Of a stretch of 64,000 nt of DNA, positions 18,105 to 43,635 are shown in pieces. The position numbers were made by a program, and so were the translations under genes. The stretch's first letter is position 1. Each line of letters opens with the position of its first letter. Origin of the DNA: a virus (Duplodnaviria; Caudoviricetes); IMG/VR virus record IMGVR_UViG_3300028603_000021, positions 1-64,000 of that record; one strand, given 5' to 3'. Under the pieces are notes generated by a model, which saw only the letters and a list, made by a program, of their open reading frames with translations, was not told the DNA's origin and did not search any database.

Positions 18105-19035
18105 GTGGCCTGAGACTAGAGCCGTAGCAGAAGGTCTTGGTAGGATTATGTATTCCCTACTTGTCCAGAGGATTTTGTCCCCTATCCTTCCAGCGCGGGT
18201 AGCTAACGGCCACCACTCGTATCGCATCGGTTTACTCGGCAGTCTACTCACCACGGAAGTCTTGCGAACTCCTTAGCAGGGGCTACCCTGCGCGTGGCTT
18301 TTGTGCTACCAAGAGCATGAGGCTTGCGACCTACACGCTCTCCCCGTCTGGCAGGGATTTTCGCACCTTACAACCTATGCGCCTAGAGACTTTTGCTTAA
18401 GTACCAAAACTTAGTTTGTTTGTGGACTGCGCGACAGGCTCTAGGTGTAGCTCCGTACCTTTGGGATACAGAATACTACCCGCCGTGCTACGTCTTTCGG
18501 ACGAGGCTCGTAAGACCACCCTCTCCGGGTAACCTTATCTTACTGGTGGAAGCAGCCGCAATGTTGAGCATTACCAGCCACCGATACCTTCCACTTGCGT
18601 CTGTTGCGGTTACCCGCTCACCGGAGTCTTTTTTCCGGCTTCACCGTCTCCTGAGCACTTGCCGTCAGAGAGTGAAGGTGCGTGGAGTGCGTGCTTTGAT
18701 GCCTGCGCATCCGAGTAATATGTCCTATTACTCGCTTAGTGCCCTTTCGGGTTTATGGCCGCACGCGGCCTTACTTCTAAAGTATAACCTACTTCTTTAT
18801 GAGTAGTATTAGAGAACCGGGTTTTGGAGGCCGGTACTTGCCGCTCTTGCTGTCTCGGATAGCGTGGAGCGGAACGCACGCACCATCACGGGCTAATTAT
18901 TAAAGTAACCCTTTACTAACGTATCCTTATCAGTTTATGCCAGTGCGAAAGGGTAAACACGAGCATGAACCTATCCCTTTTCTAAGACCCTAGTAGGAGT
19001 ATACGGGAGGAAGTGAAACCTGTTTCCCACATCGT
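18105..19035 (-). ncRNA. giant structured ncRNA (GOLLD-like candidate)
   Basis: ~930 nt without a credible ORF in a tRNA cluster; many long-range stems; GAAA/GCAA-capped hairpins on minus strand. Confidence 0.7.
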
Positions 19036-19040
19036 CGGGT

Positions 19041-19129
19041 TGGCTGATGGCAGAGGAATCGAACCTCTCTCGTAACGGCTTTCGCCCACGGGTTAACAGC
19101 CCGCCATAATCCCAGATTATTAGCCATCA
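19041..19129 (-). tRNA. atypical tRNA-Asn(GUU)
   Basis: CT-GTT-AA loop, GCCA end, 6-bp D stem, long variable arm. Confidence 0.75.
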
Positions 19130-20040: not shown

Positions 20041-20114
20041 TGGAGACGCCGACTGGATTCGAACCAGTGTTAGAGGGTTTGCAATCCTCTGCCTTACCAC
20101 TTGGCTACAACGTC
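20041..20114 (-). tRNA. tRNA-Cys(GCA)
   Basis: Cloverleaf, TT-GCA-AA, CCA. Confidence 0.9.
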
Positions 20115-20119
20115 GCGGT

Positions 20120-20145
20120 GAGCAGTTTTACTTCTTGCTCAGGAA
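20120..20145 (-). ncRNA. solo mini-pseudoknot unit (same family as 36732-37037)
   Basis: TTC-CTGAGCAA-GAA-GTAAAACT-GCTC. Confidence 0.65.
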
Positions 20146-20147
20146 CA

Positions 20148-20224
20148 TGGTAGGAGATGCTGGATTTGCACCAACGACCTTTCGTGTATCAGACGAATGC
20201 TCTAGCTAGCTGAGCTAATCTCCT
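20148..20224 (-). tRNA. tRNA-Ile(GAU)
   Basis: Cloverleaf, CT-GAT-AC, CCA. Confidence 0.9.
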
Positions 20225-20330: not shown

Positions 20331-20370
20331 TGGAGGATATTTATATACACGCCTCCTACCTGGCGCTGTA

Positions 20371-20456
20371 TGGGATATGCTGGACTCGAACCAGCGACTA
20401 CTCCTTTCGTCGGGGTGCGCCCTTGATGGAGCCTTCTGCCACTGAATTAATACCCC
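20371..20456 (-). ncRNA. tRNA-like RNA with 23-nt anticodon loop
   Basis: Normal acceptor, D and T arms; loop ATCAAGGGCGCACCCCGACGAAA. Confidence 0.7.
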
Positions 20457-20457
20457 A

Positions 20458-35817: not shown

Positions 35818-36579
35818 TCAAACTCTTAAAAGTCCTAAATCTAATTCTTTATGGTGGTTAGGACAGAGGTACACGAGATTTTTTGGGTCATTTATTTCCT
35901 CCATAGTGGCTTCGTCGGGGAATGAGGAGATATTTTTTATATGGCATAGCTCCACATAGGTGTCATACCCACAAGACCTGCACACTTTTACCAGCCCTCT
36001 TCTCGCTGCCAACCTTCTTGCTCCAGTGCGGATTCTTACGTAGTACTCGTGGGACACGTTGTTGCACATCTCTTTGAACTGACCAAACGTTTTAGAGAGA
36101 TAATCCTCATCGGCCTTCTCTTTCATCCCTGCTATCCTACAGTCAGAACATTGCTTTGACGTTGACAATATATTCTTCCCGCAGTAACAAGTGCCACTTT
36201 TCCCAGACTTAGCTGCTACTTTCTTGTGATTTACATAATGAACACCCTTAGTTCGTTTGGGATGTAGAGTGTTGTTATAAGTAGCCGAGCAGCTGCTGTT
36301 GCAAAATACCTTTCCCTTGGCGTCTGCTTCTCGTCTAAGTACGTCTTCTCCGCAGTTATCACAGCTAAGCACTAGTCGCGGGACTGCCCGAGACTTTGCC
36401 GCACAAGCAGCACTACAAAATAATGATCTGCCGTGCTTTATCGCGGCTTGTATCTTAGACTTTTTCCTAGTTACGTCCAATCCGCAACCTACGCAGTTTA
36501 TCGCCAGATGGTCTGAAGATTTCAGATGTCTTAATCTAGAGATAATTTCCTGGTAACAGTCGGGGGTCACTAGTAACAC
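35818..36579 (-). CDS. HNH endonuclease with Zn-finger repeats
   Basis: CxxCGY..E.CHIK..N...NL..LCPNHH.E.D. Confidence 0.9.
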   Translation of the reverse strand: MLLVTPDCYQEIISRLRHLKSSDHLAINCVGCGLDVTRKKSKIQAAIKHGRSLFCSAACAAKSRAVPRLVLSCDNCGEDVLRREADAKGKVFCNSSCSATYNNTLHPKRTKGVHYVNHKKVAAKSGKSGTCYCGKNILSTSKQCSDCRIAGMKEKADEDYLSKTFGQFKEMCNNVSHEYYVRIRTGARRLAARRGLVKVCRSCGYDTYVELCHIKNISSFPDEATMEEINDPKNLVYLCPNHHKELDLGLLRV

Positions 36580-36628
36580 AAAGATATGTTATCACAGCTG
36601 TAGTCGAGAGTCAAGTTTTCGAACTAGA

Positions 36629-36704
36629 TGGTAGCGGGTGTAGGATTTGAACCTCTCTTCACCCTTCCAAAGGGTGTATGCTCCCAGTTTACATCACACC
36701 CACT
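36629..36704 (-). tRNA. atypical tRNA-Pro(UGG), 8-bp acceptor and short T stem
   Basis: TT-TGG-AA; AGTGGGTG/CACCCGCT-ACCA; AGG-TTCAAAT-CCT. Confidence 0.75.
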
Positions 36705-36731
36705 GCGTGGACTCAAACATAGATGAAGATA

Positions 36732-37037
36732 GAGCCTTTTAACGCCATGCTCAGGGCTAACCCTATAAAACCTTTTAACGCCATGTCCGGGGCTGCTCTT
36801 TGTATACCACCCTCTAGCTCCGCTCGTGAAGAAGCTGAGGGGTAAGATAAGAGCAGTTTTAAGTCTTACTCAGGACTAGGAGGTAGGTGGAGCAGTTTAA
36901 TTGCCTTACTCAGGGCGGTCAAGCCGATTCCGGGTGTGCTAGCACTCAGGTTTCCAGACTCCTACCGGGTTAACCTGATACAGCTGTTACCCGCGCCGCT
37001 GCTTGGGGCGGAGCCTTTTTCAGTCGTGCTCAGGACT
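36732..37037 (-). ncRNA. array of five ~27-nt H-type mini-pseudoknots plus hairpins
   Basis: Covarying stems; directly downstream of a consensus promoter. Confidence 0.75.
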
Positions 37038-37048
37038 TGGTTTATCTA

Positions 37049-37077
37049 ATTATAGCAACTTTAGTCGTTCTTGTCAA
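37049..37077 (-). promoter_or_regulatory. perfect sigma70 promoter driving the pseudoknot array
   Basis: TTGACA-N17-TATAAT. Confidence 0.85.
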
Positions 37078-37258
37078 ACGGCGGGTCTAGAAGACCCTTA
37101 CCACGCGAAAGCTTGCTGAATATCAAGTAGAGGTAGAAGGGTATCCCAACCGGCCACACGAAGAAGTAGAGAGTATCCTCTGGTTCAAAACCTCCCCTTC
37201 CGCGAGCCAGCCCGAACAGCATCCCACACACCCAAAGTCCTATCAAGTAGATTCCCAT
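37061..37258 (-). CDS. small membrane protein
   Basis: AAGGAGG RBS; hydrophobic. Confidence 0.7.
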   Translation of the reverse strand: MGIYLIGLWVCGMLFGLARGRGGFEPEDTLYFFVWPVGIPFYLYLIFSKLSRGKGLLDPPFDKND

Positions 37259-37295
37259 TGCTTTACCTCCTTTCCTCTATACTATCACTAGTCAG

Positions 37296-37547
37296 CTACG
37301 GTGTCAACTTCTTTGCAAGGTTAAGGACAGCTTCTTCTTCTGTAGCCCCGAATCCTTCAACCTCAAGGCTGTCATCGTCTGGAAAGATAGCACGGGCTAC
37401 ATAGCCACTTTCTGTTTCCTCTACCTGAACCATATAGCTGCTGACCTTTTCAGTGGTCGTAGTGACCTTAGTACCGAACTCAGACCACACATACGAAGCA
37501 GCCGCTGCCCCTAGAAGAAAAGCTCCCAGCATCTCAAACCACGGCAT
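37296..37547 (-). CDS. membrane-anchored protein with HicB-like N-domain pattern
   Basis: TM; E.E.GYVA..P...GFGATEEEA..NL. Confidence 0.6.
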   Translation of the reverse strand: MPWFEMLGAFLLGAAAASYVWSEFGTKVTTTTEKVSSYMVQVEETESGYVARAIFPDDDSLEVEGFGATEEEAVLNLAKKLTP

Positions 37548-41596: not shown

Positions 41597-42013
41597 CTAC
41601 CTAGACCATCGTTTCTTCTGCCGGAAGACTACGGGGTAGGCTATCCCAAGCTCTCTGGAAATCTGGCTGACTGTCTTGTTCTCCCAGTCAACAGCATCCC
41701 AGTCCGTCACCCAACGGCCTTTACGCGGCTTAGGTGTTGGCTTTTTTACCTCTGCTCCTACTAAGGTAAGGTCTTTCTGGATAGTAGACACAGAGACGTT
41801 AAACTCGTCTGCCCACTCCTTGGCTGTTTTAATACCGCCGGACTCAGCCAGAACCTTGCGCCTCACGGCACTTCGGCTGAGGCTGCGAGGCTTACCAAGA
41901 GCGTGCCTTACCTGATGGACGCGCTGCCTGGTTACTCCCACGAGTCTGGCTATCTCAGAGTCAGTCATATCCCAGTCTACAGCTTCCCAGTCTGTCATTG
42001 TTGTTTCACCCAC
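41597..42013 (-). CDS. multi-HTH DNA-binding protein
   Basis: EIARLVGVTRQRV; WADEFNVSVSTI; ISRELGI. Confidence 0.8.
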   Translation of the reverse strand: MGETTMTDWEAVDWDMTDSEIARLVGVTRQRVHQVRHALGKPRSLSRSAVRRKVLAESGGIKTAKEWADEFNVSVSTIQKDLTLVGAEVKKPTPKPRKGRWVTDWDAVDWENKTVSQISRELGIAYPVVFRQKKRWSR

Positions 42014-42537
42014 TTTCTAGGGGTCATGCTCAGAAGTAGCTTAGAGATGTTATAAGCATCGTCGCCCCCGTCGTGATGTCGCCCCTCAAGCTCAAGACCA
42101 GCGACCCGCATAGCTGTATCCATACCGCAGCTCTGTCCTGTAAGAACAAAAAACATCAGCTTGACGTTAAGGTGCTGCATGTTCACCGGATAGCGTATGT
42201 ACTTCCTCTCTGCCTCAGTAAAGATCATCCTGCGGTCGTAGTCTCCCCAGGATGCCCATGGGAGCCTAGTGAGGCGGAATTTTTCCTCTAGGGTTCTGAA
42301 AGCTTCCTCTAGGAAAACTCCCTCAGAAAAAACCCGAACCTGTGTCAAGCCAGTCAGGTCTTCGCAGAAGTCACTCAAGGTGAACGACAGCATCGGCTTC
42401 ACTATAACAGAAAAAGGCGGCGTTACCGTCCTCTTGTTAGTATCAACCTGAGAGACACCTATCTGTATGATCTCTGAGGGAGTAGTACTCGGTGTATCCC
42501 AGCACGTAGCCTCCAGGTCTATGACATTGATCTTCAC
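41995..42537 (-). CDS. DEDDh 3'-5' exonuclease (ERI-1/KapD-like)
   Basis: IDLEATCW, SWG.YD, HH.G.DDA.N. Confidence 0.9.
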   Translation of the reverse strand: MKINVIDLEATCWDTPSTTPSEIIQIGVSQVDTNKRTVTPPFSVIVKPMLSFTLSDFCEDLTGLTQVRVFSEGVFLEEAFRTLEEKFRLTRLPWASWGDYDRRMIFTEAERKYIRYPVNMQHLNVKLMFFVLTGQSCGMDTAMRVAGLELEGRHHDGGDDAYNISKLLLSMTPRKWVKQQ

Positions 42538-43273: not shown

Positions 43274-43635
43274 TGGTGGACTCGTCGGCTTCGCAGCCGA
43301 GTCCTGAACTCTTATCCCAAGGTTGTCTACATGTGTATCTGTTTTATATGTTCGCCATGAAAACAGCAAAACCGGCTAGCTCTATGTACGTGCCTTCTTA
43401 TCAGAGCTTTTCAGGGGCACGCCCTCTAAGTTGACGGTTACAGAGTAGAGGAGTCGTCTGTAACCCGCCTAGCTTACGCGGCTAGGGCTTGAGGCTGTGA
43501 CGCTCCGAGGAAAACCCACGGAAGCGTTTCAGAAGTTTTGTCAGTTAGACTTTTTCCAGATTTTTAACGAGGCCATCCGGAACCCTCGACATGCTAACCT
43601 TGTCTTCAGAGCCCAGTCGAAACTGTTTCGAGCCC
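43274..43635 (-). ncRNA. ssrA: tmRNA
   Basis: GGGCTCGAAACAGTTTCGAC 5' end, GAGTCCACCA 3' end; tag (A)DKTSETLPWVFLGASQPQALAA*. Confidence 0.92.

What the first reader, a model, noticed from the sequence alone, without database searches (positions are those of the whole stretch)
36732..37077. Promoter-driven array of covarying ~27-nt mini-pseudoknot RNAs
Seen: a perfect TTGACA-17-TATAAT promoter (37077-37049, minus) starts a non-coding transcript holding five units (37011-37037, 36890-36916, 36851-36877, 36768-36794, 36732-36758). A sixth unit lies between tRNA-Ile and tRNA-Cys (20120-20145). Consensus: stem1-C(T/C)G(A/G)(G/A)(C/T)AH-stem1'-A-rich linker-GCTC. Stem 1 covaries (AGTC/GACT, GCC/GGC, TTC/GAA). 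Stem 2 also covaries (GAGC/GCTC, GAGT/GCTC, GGAC/GTTT), with G-U pairs that work only on the minus strand. Known: compact H-type pseudoknots of this size are used by type III antitoxin RNAs (ToxI) and preQ1-I aptamers. Inference: a highly expressed, processed set of RNA decoys (anti-defence antitoxin mimics, or protein or ligand sponges). I do not recognise the family.
Basis: partly seen in the sequence, partly recalled or inferred. Interest (0 to 1): 0.88.

Follow-up and report, generated by a model that had tools for sequence, protein, structure and literature searches.

The report
Widespread mini-pseudoknot, amplified before phage tRNA
The five repeats are real copies of a tiny, uncatalogued RNA pseudoknot that many unrelated phages place just after stop codons or just before tRNAs; it looks like a plant-virus RNA that blocks ribosomes and RNA-degrading enzymes, and nothing supports the antitoxin-decoy reading.

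Summary
There is a perfect sigma-70 promoter and five ~27-nt units on the minus strand upstream of tRNA-Pro, with a sixth unit between tRNA-Ile and tRNA-Cys. The 190-kb phage has exactly these six copies; shuffled windows give 0.14.

The units belong to a very large family. BLAST of one 30-nt variant matched 162 cultured-phage records (Staphylococcus, Vibrio, Lactobacillus, Mycobacterium, cyanophages), and copies also occur in bacterial genomes.

Both stems covary. With the 3' strand left free, loop GGAC pairs with GUCC/GUCU and loop AAGC pairs with GCUU. In a 139-sequence alignment 94% of cells pair, against 28-38% when the partners are slid.

The element is intergenic and on the coding strand. 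It starts 5-9 nt after a stop codon in 44% of cases, with a sharp lower limit at 5 nt. It often lies 0-13 nt before a tRNA and almost never just after one.

Rfam 15 and full-text paper searches gave no match. The closest known relative is the coremin xrRNA-C/WCC motif of RNA viruses, but the phage element lacks coremin's required second hairpin.

The most likely role is a compact roadblock or boundary element in polycistronic RNA, amplified here. The ToxI-mimic reading is not supported. This scan found the same pseudoknot before on other phages (e1-370971, e1-5348825).

The parts
37049..37077 (-). Consensus sigma-70 promoter (TTGACA, 17-nt spacer with TG, TATAAT). The predicted start is about 5 nt before unit A. 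It overlaps the end of a 65-aa ORF.
   Evidence: 12/12 matches
37011..37037 (-). Pseudoknot unit A: AGUC / loop CUGAGCAC / GACU / GAAAAAG / GCUC
   Evidence: 31.8 bits
36890..36916 (-). Pseudoknot unit B: GCC / CUGAGUAA / GGC / AAUUAAACU / GCUC (linker 1 nt longer than usual)
   Evidence: 29.6 bits
36851..36877 (-). Pseudoknot unit C: AGUC / CUGAGUAA / GACU / UAAAACU / GCUC. It lies 39 nt after unit B.
   Evidence: 40.8 bits
36768..36793 (-). Pseudoknot unit D: GCC / CCGGACAU / GGC / GUUAAAAG / GUUU. Stem 2 is kept through one compensatory change and two G-U pairs. This is the weakest copy.
   Evidence: 23.1 bits
36732..36757 (-). Pseudoknot unit E: GCC / CUGAGCAU / GGC / GUUAAAAG / GCUC. It lies 36 nt after unit D and 27 nt before tRNA-Pro.
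   Evidence: 38.6 bits
36629..36704 (-). tRNA-Pro(UGG), the first recognisable product downstream of the array
20120..20145 (-). Pseudoknot unit F: UUC / CUGAGCAA / GAA / GUAAAACU / GCUC. It lies between tRNA-Ile (20148-20224) and tRNA-Cys (20041-20114).
   Evidence: 39.6 bits
37061..37258 (-). 65-aa ORF with no Pfam match. Its stop codon lies 23 nt before unit A, so the array is also the 3' untranslated region of the upstream small-gene operon.

Best explanation
The six units are members of a very widespread, uncatalogued family of compact (~27 nt) H-type RNA pseudoknots found in phages and also in bacterial genomes.

Anatomy:
- Stem 1 has 3-4 bp and is closed by an invariant C-G pair.
- Loop 1 is CU.
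- Stem 2 has 4 covarying pairs plus a conserved A-U pair.
- A 1-nt junction links the stems.
- The linker is A-rich (NNAAAC).
- About 10 G-poor, unstructured nucleotides follow stem 2.

In sequence and topology the element is the prokaryotic look-alike of the coremin-type xrRNA (xrRNA-C / Watson-Crick variant xrRNA-WCC) and of luteovirus frameshift pseudoknots.

Most likely it acts in cis as a small, mechanically robust boundary element in polycistronic RNA. Under this reading, translating ribosomes and other machines moving 5' to 3' along RNA (RNase J, scanning RNase E, perhaps Rho) cannot easily unwind it. It would therefore insulate the downstream RNA (a tRNA or the next cistron) from events on the upstream cistron and define stable processing products.

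In this phage the element has been locally multiplied (tandem pairs B-C and D-E, plus A) between a strong host-type promoter or operon end and tRNA-Pro, and one copy sits in front of tRNA-Cys.

What is shown: the fold, the family, its distribution and its placement rules.
What is inferred: the roadblock mechanism, from the coremin literature and from the 5-nt limit after stop codons.
For: Fold:
- Stem 1: three variable pairs change on both sides in 53-75 of 139 sequences.
- Stem 2: three pairs change on both sides in 34-42 of 139 sequences. 94.1% of cells pair, against 28-38% when the partners are slid.
- Unbiased stem-2 test with the 3' strand left free. Loop GGAC gives GUCC 57 and GUCU 13 of 87, and GCUC 0. 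Loop AAGC gives GCUU 78 of 105 and GCUC 4.
- G-U pairs are strand-specific.
- The junction tolerates inserted hairpins.

Family size:
- 50 of 123 hits in prokaryote genomes carry stem 1, against about 5% expected by chance.
- BLAST of one 30-nt variant matched 162 cultured-phage records, among them Staphylococcus phage B166, Mycobacterium phage Labelle and Synechococcus phage S-EIVl. The model also found a copy in Lactobacillus phage KC5a.

Placement:
- The coding strand is the same as the pseudoknot strand in 335 cases and opposite in 53.
- Distance from the stop codon to stem 1 has a sharp lower limit at 5 nt: 59 cases at 5, only 7 below, and 153 of 348 within 5-9 nt. This is the spacing used by frameshift pseudoknots, and it is what one expects if ribosomes cannot easily unwind the element.
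- 31 copies lie 0-13 nt before a tRNA and only 2 lie just after one.
- In Staphylococcus and Lactobacillus phages the element sits at the boundary before the scaffold and capsid genes.

Coremin match (PMC10520033 and PMC10321173):
- Coremin is GUC-CGAA-GAC-GUUAAACUAC.
- Longer loops such as CGAGUAA also work.
- The Watson-Crick variant pairs GAG with CUC.
- These motifs block Xrn1 and scanning ribosomes and stimulate -1 frameshifting.
- The Watson-Crick variant stimulates frameshifting even without the second hairpin.
- Their frameshift screen was run in E. coli.
Against: - No experiment has been done on any phage copy.
- Coremin's second hairpin, required for Xrn1 blocking, is not a feature here. 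A hairpin starts within 0-4 nt in 75 of 414 copies, against 112 of 414 control positions, and the 26 nt after the knot are less structured than controls.
- Bacteria have no Xrn1, and some hosts of carrier phages (for example Vibrio) lack RNase J, as far as I know.
- The 5-nt limit could reflect only genome compaction plus avoidance of the ribosome footprint.
- Units B-E of this array follow no ORF, so the usual placement rule does not explain them.
- 15% of copies are followed by a U-tract, which hints at a termination-linked role in some contexts.
Confidence: 0.5

Rival explanations
1. 3'-end cap. The knot protects the upstream cistron from 3'-to-5' exonucleases. The RNA would first be cut or terminated just downstream, by RNase P at the following tRNA, by RNase E or Y in the G-poor tract, or at a U-tract.
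For: - The knot is tightly tied to the upstream stop codon but only loosely to the next start codon (median 27 nt, range 6-44).
- 31 copies lie just before a tRNA and only 2 just after one. A knot after a tRNA would hinder trimming of the tRNA 3' end.
- An unstructured G-poor tail follows the knot.
- 63 of 419 copies are followed by a U-tract.
- Other clusters of knots lie at operon ends, before the next promoter (L486, L068).
Against: - The published relatives of this fold block enzymes arriving from the 5' side.
- Unit F lies 2 nt after tRNA-Ile.
- Units B-E have no upstream ORF.
- No end-mapping data exist.
Confidence: 0.2
2. tRNA-acceptor-like punctuation. The coaxial stack presents U(-1)/G(+1)...C72-A73(-C-C), as in the pseudoknotted acceptor arm of the turnip yellow mosaic virus tRNA-like structure. 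It would be cut or bound by RNase P or other tRNA-end enzymes.
For: - U1, the G2:C22 pair and A after stem 2 (63-70%) are conserved, and C is enriched at the next two positions (45% and 39%).
- ACC follows stem 2 in 41 of 419 copies.
- The knot is often next to tRNAs.
Against: - The stack is only 9-10 bp and has no T-loop.
- Stem 2 covaries freely, including its first pair.
- CCA is present in only a minority of copies.
- Most copies are far from any tRNA.
Confidence: 0.1
3. The promoter-driven array makes processed decoy RNAs, either ToxI-like antitoxin mimics or sponges for a host protein or ligand.
For: - A strong promoter, five units in 306 nt and no ORF.
- Arrays this dense are rare.
- Stalled xrRNAs of flaviviruses are reported to sequester Xrn1 (my own knowledge), so a sponge built from roadblock knots is conceivable.
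Against: - The units are irregularly spaced (121, 39, 84 and 36 nt) and differ in sequence.
- The family is normally solitary and acts in cis.
- There is no Rfam ToxI or preQ1 match even at E up to 10.
- No ToxN-family gene was found, although that search's control also found nothing.
- Genes downstream of family members are diverse.
Confidence: 0.07
4. A small-molecule aptamer or riboswitch with preQ1-I-like architecture.
For: It has the same H-type topology with an A-rich linker and a similar size.
Against: - There are several copies per operon.
- Copies lie before tRNAs and before unrelated genes: endonuclease, PhoH, kinase, helicase, scaffold, copA, htpG.
- The junction nucleotide is not conserved.
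- There is no Rfam match.
Confidence: 0.03
5. A very small self-cleaving ribozyme, or a DNA-level signal such as a promoter or protein-binding site.
For: - Loop and linker nucleotides are highly conserved.
- The position is intergenic.
- One GenBank record labels the site 'promoter', but only from a BPROM prediction.
Against: - At 27 nt it is far below any natural ribozyme I know of.
- Interleaved covariation of two stems with strand-specific G-U pairs cannot be explained at the DNA level.
- The geometry relative to -35/-10 boxes is inconsistent between copies.
Confidence: 0.03

Closest known systems
Coremin motif xrRNA-C and its Watson-Crick variant xrRNA-WCC of plant, fungal and invertebrate RNA viruses (Dilweg, Peer, Olsthoorn; PMC6546385, PMC10520033, PMC10321173)
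   Same: - The hairpin has a 3-4 bp stem closed by C-G, and GUC/GAC is the commonest phage version.
- The first loop base is C.
- The loop ends in A followed by A or U.
- The linker GUUAAACU is identical.
- In the Watson-Crick variant the loop pairs with the sequence after the linker (GAG with CUC).
- Longer natural loops such as CGAGUAA are functional.
- Tandem repeats occur.
- Some copies lie in intergenic regions or next to stop codons.
   Different: - The phage loop has 8 nt (CUGAGYAH), with U before the G.
- Stem 2 has 4-5 canonical pairs that covary freely.
- The second hairpin required for Xrn1 resistance is absent in most copies.
- The hosts are DNA phages and bacteria, which have no Xrn1.
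- The element is placed 5-9 nt after stop codons or just before tRNAs.
Luteovirus/enamovirus -1 frameshift pseudoknots (BWYV, PLRV, PEMV-1 type)
   Same: It is a compact H-type knot of similar size. Loop 1 is 1-2 nt and begins with C, there is a 1-nt junction, the linker is A-rich, and it lies 5-9 nt downstream of the codon in the ribosomal A site.
   Different: What lies upstream is a stop codon, not a slippery heptamer. There is no overlapping downstream frame. Stem 1 is shorter and stem 2 is longer.
Type III antitoxin RNAs (ToxI, CptI, TenpI, AntiQ) and phage pseudo-ToxI
   Same: Small pseudoknot units that can occur in tandem behind a promoter. Two pairs of units here have a 36-39 nt period.
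   Different: There are no regular near-identical repeats, no toxin partner and no sequence or Rfam match. The family is mostly single-copy and cis-placed at gene boundaries.
preQ1-I riboswitch aptamer (Rfam RF00522)
   Same: H-type topology, small size and an A-rich linker lying in the stem-1 groove.
   Different: The conserved nucleotides differ, there is no Rfam match, there is no link to queuosine genes, and several copies occur per operon and before tRNAs.
Intercistronic processing or stabiliser elements (T7 RNase III sites, REP hairpins, tRNA-like t-elements)
   Same: It sits at cistron boundaries of long phage transcripts and is associated with tRNAs acting as processing points.
   Different: It is a pseudoknot, not a long duplex or a cloverleaf, and it is conserved across phages of at least four bacterial phyla.

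Membership tests
Coremin xrRNA-C / xrRNA-WCC | 5' hairpin with a 3-4 bp stem closed by C-G | tested here: met
   The closing C-G pair is present in 139/139 sequences, and the other three pairs covary. C at -1 was not part of the first search pattern yet was present in 100% of 144 hits.
Coremin xrRNA-C / xrRNA-WCC | Loop consensus YGAD / YGNNAD (first Y, last A-D) | tested here: inconclusive
   The phage loop is 8 nt, C-U-G-A-G-Y-A-H. The first C and the terminal A plus A/U (90%) fit. The second base is U, not G. The published heptaloop CGAGUAA differs by one inserted U.
Coremin xrRNA-C / xrRNA-WCC | Conserved spacer GUUAAACU(AC) | tested here: met
   The linker is NNAAAC followed by U in 83% of hits (AAA was fixed by the search pattern; C 83% was not), and the exact GUUAAACU is among the commonest versions. 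The final AC is replaced by the 4-nt stem-2 strand.
Coremin xrRNA-C / xrRNA-WCC | Loop-spacer pseudoknot pairing (Watson-Crick in WCC) | tested here: met
   compensatory changes at three stem-2 pairs
Coremin xrRNA-C / xrRNA-WCC | Second hairpin (hp2) directly downstream | tested here: not met
   A hairpin starts within 0-4 nt in 75/414 copies, against 112/414 at control positions. The tail is less structured than the control, p = 5e-6.
Coremin xrRNA-C / xrRNA-WCC | Stalls Xrn1, blocks ribosomes, stimulates -1 frameshifting | not testable with these tools
   Needs biochemical assays. The only indirect hint is the 5-nt limit after stop codons.
Type III antitoxin RNA (ToxI-like) | Array of near-identical direct repeats of 34-45 nt | tested here: not met
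   Spacings are 121, 39, 84 and 36 nt and the units differ. The family is mostly solitary: three or more copies within 500 nt occur in 3 of 349 loci.
Type III antitoxin RNA (ToxI-like) | Adjacent ToxN/AbiQ-type endoribonuclease gene | tested here: inconclusive
   PF13958 was not found in the phage, but the control genomes gave no hit either. The next gene after tRNA-Pro is an HNH endonuclease.
Type III antitoxin RNA (ToxI-like) | Match to a known antitoxin RNA family | tested here: not met
   No Rfam match over 36500-37300 at E up to 10
preQ1-I riboswitch | Match to RF00522 and link to queuosine or transporter genes | tested here: not met
   No Rfam match. Downstream genes are diverse, or are tRNAs.
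-1 frameshift pseudoknot | Slippery heptamer 5-9 nt upstream and an overlapping -1 frame | tested here: not met
   A stop codon occupies that position and no upstream position is conserved. I did not scan systematically for slippery heptamers.
Promoter or DNA-level site | Conserved duplex sequence without need for intramolecular pairing | tested here: not met
   Two interleaved covarying helices with strand-specific G-U pairs

The most novel reading that the evidence does not exclude
The knot is a general prokaryotic counterpart of eukaryotic-virus xrRNAs: a 27-nt directional roadblock that stops ribosomes and 5'-to-3' RNA decay at cistron boundaries. The promoter-driven five-unit array of this phage would then be an sfRNA-like product that stalls and titrates a host RNA-decay enzyme or ribosomes early in infection, protecting the phage's large tRNA set.
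Probability: 0.12. Interest if true: 0.9.

Novelty: new variant of a known kind. Interest (0 to 1): 0.7.

Why it matters
If the roadblock reading holds, one of the smallest known structured RNA modules would be a common way for phages of Firmicutes, Actinobacteria, Cyanobacteria and Proteobacteria, and for some bacteria, to partition long transcripts into units with different fates.

- It would link bacterial RNA biology to the xrRNA and frameshift pseudoknots of eukaryotic RNA viruses.
- It would give annotators a new intergenic feature; at least one GenBank record currently labels it a 'promoter'.
- It would offer synthetic biology a 27-nt insulator.

The cultured carriers (Staphylococcus Phietavirus phages, Lactobacillus phage KC5a, Mycobacterium phage Labelle, cyanophages) make it directly testable.

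Tried and rejected
- Rfam 15 at gathering and permissive thresholds, on the window and on 31 other loci: only tRNA, tmRNA and GOLLD were found.
- Full-text paper searches by sequence and by topic: no description in phages was found. The 10,006-candidate phage RNA catalogue (PMC10690425) could not be checked because its supplements are not held.
- Close relatives of this phage: none found by DNA or by a neighbouring protein.
- Sigma-70 or phage promoter reading: rejected because of covariation and inconsistent box geometry.
- Riboswitch reading: rejected because downstream genes are diverse.
- ToxN search: nothing found, and the control was also silent.
- Whole-leader fold and folds of the spacers between units: not more stable than shuffles, z from +0.3 to -1.2.
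- Second hairpin (hp2) after the knot: not enriched.
- E. coli genomes with one 30-nt variant: no match.
- I considered similarity of stem 2 to the 16S helix 1 and to boxA, and dropped both once stem 2 proved to covary freely.

Full report
WHAT IS THERE

On the minus strand a perfect extended sigma-70 promoter (TTGACA, 17 nt with TG, TATAAT; 37077-37049) overlaps the end of a 65-aa ORF. About 5 nt after the predicted start comes unit A (37037-37011). Units B (36916-36890), C (36877-36851), D (36793-36768) and E (36757-36732) follow. tRNA-Pro (36704-36629) begins 27 nt after E. A sixth unit, F (20145-20120), fills the gap between tRNA-Ile and tRNA-Cys.

Each unit reads: stem 1 (3-4 bp, closed by C-G), loop C-U/C-G-R-R-Y-A-N, the other strand of stem 1, an A-rich linker, and four bases that pair with loop positions 3-6.

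A structural pattern finds exactly these six copies in the window and in the whole 190-kb phage, and none on the plus strand. 200 dinucleotide-preserving shuffles give a mean of 0.14. A covariance model gives the same six copies. The window is the start of a complete IMG/VR phage genome with 28 tRNAs, a tmRNA and a GOLLD RNA.

THE UNITS BELONG TO A VERY LARGE FAMILY

In 146 of 147 matches the bases flanking the loop form 3 or more pairs, although the pattern did not ask for this. The base before the loop is C in 100% of matches.

In the first alignment the three variable stem-1 pairs change on both sides in 46-71 of 116 sequences. There, 95% of cells pair, against 25-45% when the partner is slid.

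Stem 2 had been fixed by that pattern, so I tested it separately. I fixed only the loop and left the 3' strand free.
- With loop GGAC, the 87 hits that have stem 1 carry GUCC (57) or GUCU (13), and never the canonical GCUC.
- With loop AAGC, the 105 hits carry GCUU (78), and GCUC only 4 times.
- Other versions seen are GGGU/ACCC, GGGC/GCCC, GAGU/ACUC, GAAU/GUUC and AGGU/GCCU.

In a 139-sequence alignment of three stem-2 classes, 94.1% of cells pair (28-38% when slid), and six of nine pairs show changes on both sides. G-U pairs (U5-G19; GUCU) work only on the transcribed strand. The 1-nt junction can hold an inserted hairpin. The H-type pseudoknot is therefore established as well as sequence comparison allows.

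DISTRIBUTION

- In prokaryote genomes, 50 of 123 pattern hits carry stem 1, against about 5% expected. They include eight Saccharibacteria loci, Geobacter, Aminicenantes, Lachnospiraceae and Calothrix. Many sit beside mobile-element genes (ArdA, DUF7249), and some sit before copA-type ATPase or htpG genes.
- BLAST of one 30-nt variant matched 162 cultured-phage records: Staphylococcus 85, Vibrio 27, Lactobacillus 9, and also Mycobacterium, Arthrobacter, Synechococcus, Nostoc, Microcystis, Paracoccus, Bacillus, Moorella and others.
- In Staphylococcus phage B166 and Lactobacillus phage KC5a the knot lies between the head-morphogenesis (or protease) gene and the scaffold gene. The B166 record labels the spot 'promoter' from a BPROM prediction only.
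- In Mycobacterium phage Labelle and Synechococcus phage S-EIVl the knot starts 6 nt after a stop codon.
- Phage records of 24-116 kb carry 5-8 copies, mostly clustered in a few kilobases; in the one such region I read (L068) it is an early-type region with host-type promoters.

PLACEMENT RULES (405-437 viral instances)

- The knot is on the coding strand in 335 cases and on the opposite strand in 53.
- The distance from the preceding stop codon to the fourth stem-1 pair has a sharp lower limit: 59 cases at exactly 5 nt, only 7 below, and 153 of 348 within 5-9 nt.
- The distance to the next start codon is loose (median 27 nt), and only about a quarter of copies have a start within 45 nt.
- 31 copies lie 0-13 nt before a tRNA. 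Only 2 lie just after one.
- 15% of copies are followed by a U-tract.
- The 10 nt after stem 2 are G-poor (4-10% G). They begin with A (63-70%) and then are enriched in C. The 26 nt after the knot are less structured than control segments.
- Downstream genes are unrelated to each other: endonuclease, PhoH, kinase, helicase, scaffold.
- Three or more copies within 500 nt occur in only 3 of 349 other loci. A 37-nt tandem pair like B-C and D-E occurs in L465. The five-unit array here is therefore an unusual local amplification of a normally solitary element.

WHAT IT IS NOT

- Rfam 15 has no match, even at E up to 10. It is therefore not ToxI, not preQ1-I and not a catalogued ribozyme.
- It is not a riboswitch for one pathway, because it has diverse neighbours, sits before tRNAs and occurs several times per operon.
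- It is not a promoter or other DNA site, because two interleaved helices covary with strand-specific wobble pairs.
- The irregular spacing (121, 39, 84 and 36 nt) and the differences between the units do not fit type III antitoxin arrays.
- No ToxN-family gene was seen, although that search's control was also silent.

CLOSEST KNOWN RELATIVE

A lead from earlier notes of this scan (e1-370971, e1-5348825) pointed to the coremin motif. I read the papers.

- Coremin is GUC-CGAA-GAC-GUUAAACUAC followed by a second hairpin.
- Its loop consensus is YGAD or YGNNAD. Natural longer loops, including CGAGUAA, still work.
- A Watson-Crick variant (xrRNA-WCC) pairs loop GAG with CUC after the spacer.
- These RNAs stall Xrn1 one base before the first hairpin, block scanning ribosomes and stimulate -1 frameshifting. 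The frameshift screen was run in E. coli.
- The Watson-Crick variant keeps its frameshift activity without the second hairpin.

The commonest phage version, GUC-CUGAGCAU-GAC-GUUAAACU-GCUC, shares several features with coremin: the stem with its C-G closure, the first loop C, the terminal A-A/U of the loop, the whole GUUAAACU linker and the GAG/CUC pairing. It differs in four ways: the loop has 8 nt, stem 2 has 4-5 bp and covaries freely, the hosts are DNA phages and bacteria, and there is no second hairpin. I therefore file it as a new variant of this kind of knot, not as a member of the coremin family.

MECHANISM

The fold, the family and the placement rules are shown. The following is inferred.

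The sharp 5-nt limit after stop codons equals the minimal spacer of frameshift signals. It is what one expects if a ribosome cannot easily unwind the knot: any closer, and the ribosome could not reach the stop codon. Together with the published behaviour of the coremin core, this suggests a compact directional roadblock at cistron boundaries. Such a roadblock would insulate the downstream RNA (a tRNA or the next cistron; scaffold and capsid genes in Firmicutes phages) from ribosomes and from 5'-to-3' decay or scanning that starts upstream.

In this phage, five knots stand between a strong promoter or operon end and tRNA-Pro, and one stands before tRNA-Cys.

The main rival is a 3'-end cap for the upstream cistron. 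It is favoured by the tie to stop codons, the strong bias for positions before rather than after tRNAs, and the U-tract subset. My evidence does not separate the two directions.

A tRNA-acceptor-like signal for RNase P, and a sponge role for this particular array, remain possible at lower odds.

NOVELTY

I found no description of this element in phages or bacteria in Rfam or in the searchable literature. One large candidate catalogue could not be inspected. The same knot has been noted before by this scan on other phage DNA.

Noticed in passing
window 18107-18488 (-): GOLLD RNA (Rfam RF02032, 189.7 bits) lies inside the phage tRNA cluster.
   Followed up: no
window 43274-43635 (-): A phage-encoded tmRNA (RF00023, 106.6 bits). 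An RNase T-like exonuclease gene (41995-42537) and an HTH protein gene lie just downstream of it on the same strand.
   Followed up: no
window 20370-20457 (-) and 19041-19129 (-): ARAGORN calls an 88-nt 'tRNA-???' with a two-base anticodon and an 89-nt tRNA-Asn. Neither reached the Rfam tRNA gathering score, so they may be unusual or interrupted tRNAs.
   Followed up: no
window 36876-36887 (-): The spacer between units B and C reads CCUACCUCCUAG, an anti-Shine-Dalgarno-like tract. Pyrimidine-rich, G-poor tails after the knot are a general family feature.
   Followed up: partly
window 35818-36579 (-): An HNH endonuclease gene (PF13391) lies directly after tRNA-Pro, behind a weaker promoter-like site (36614-36586).
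   Followed up: no
L068:6519-6673 (+), L075:3081-3144 (-), L029:9987-10028 (+): Family members carry a hairpin or extra bases inserted at the 1-nt junction between stem 2 and stem 1. In L068, two knots flank a roughly 70-nt non-coding stretch.
   Followed up: partly
L488:2506-2542 (Staphylococcus phage B166, KP893289): The GenBank 'promoter' feature (a BPROM prediction) overlaps the pseudoknot between the head-morphogenesis and scaffold genes. It is probably a mis-annotation of the RNA element.
   Followed up: partly
L139, L141, L148, L150, L154, L173, L211, L232 (Saccharibacteria MAGs): The knot is over-represented in Saccharibacteria genomes. There it usually lies 6-8 nt after a DUF7249 gene or an unnamed small gene, possibly within integrated elements.
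   Followed up: partly
L177:277 and L245:1996: The knot lies 32-33 nt before copA-type heavy-metal P-type ATPase genes in two related bacterial MAGs, so not every copy is phage-borne.
   Followed up: no
L026, L035, L055, L096, L126 (about 60 nt upstream of the knot): In one phage group a TATAAT box directly after a stop codon is followed by two conserved hairpins and then the knot, about 20 nt before the start codon. This may be a larger composite leader.
   Followed up: no
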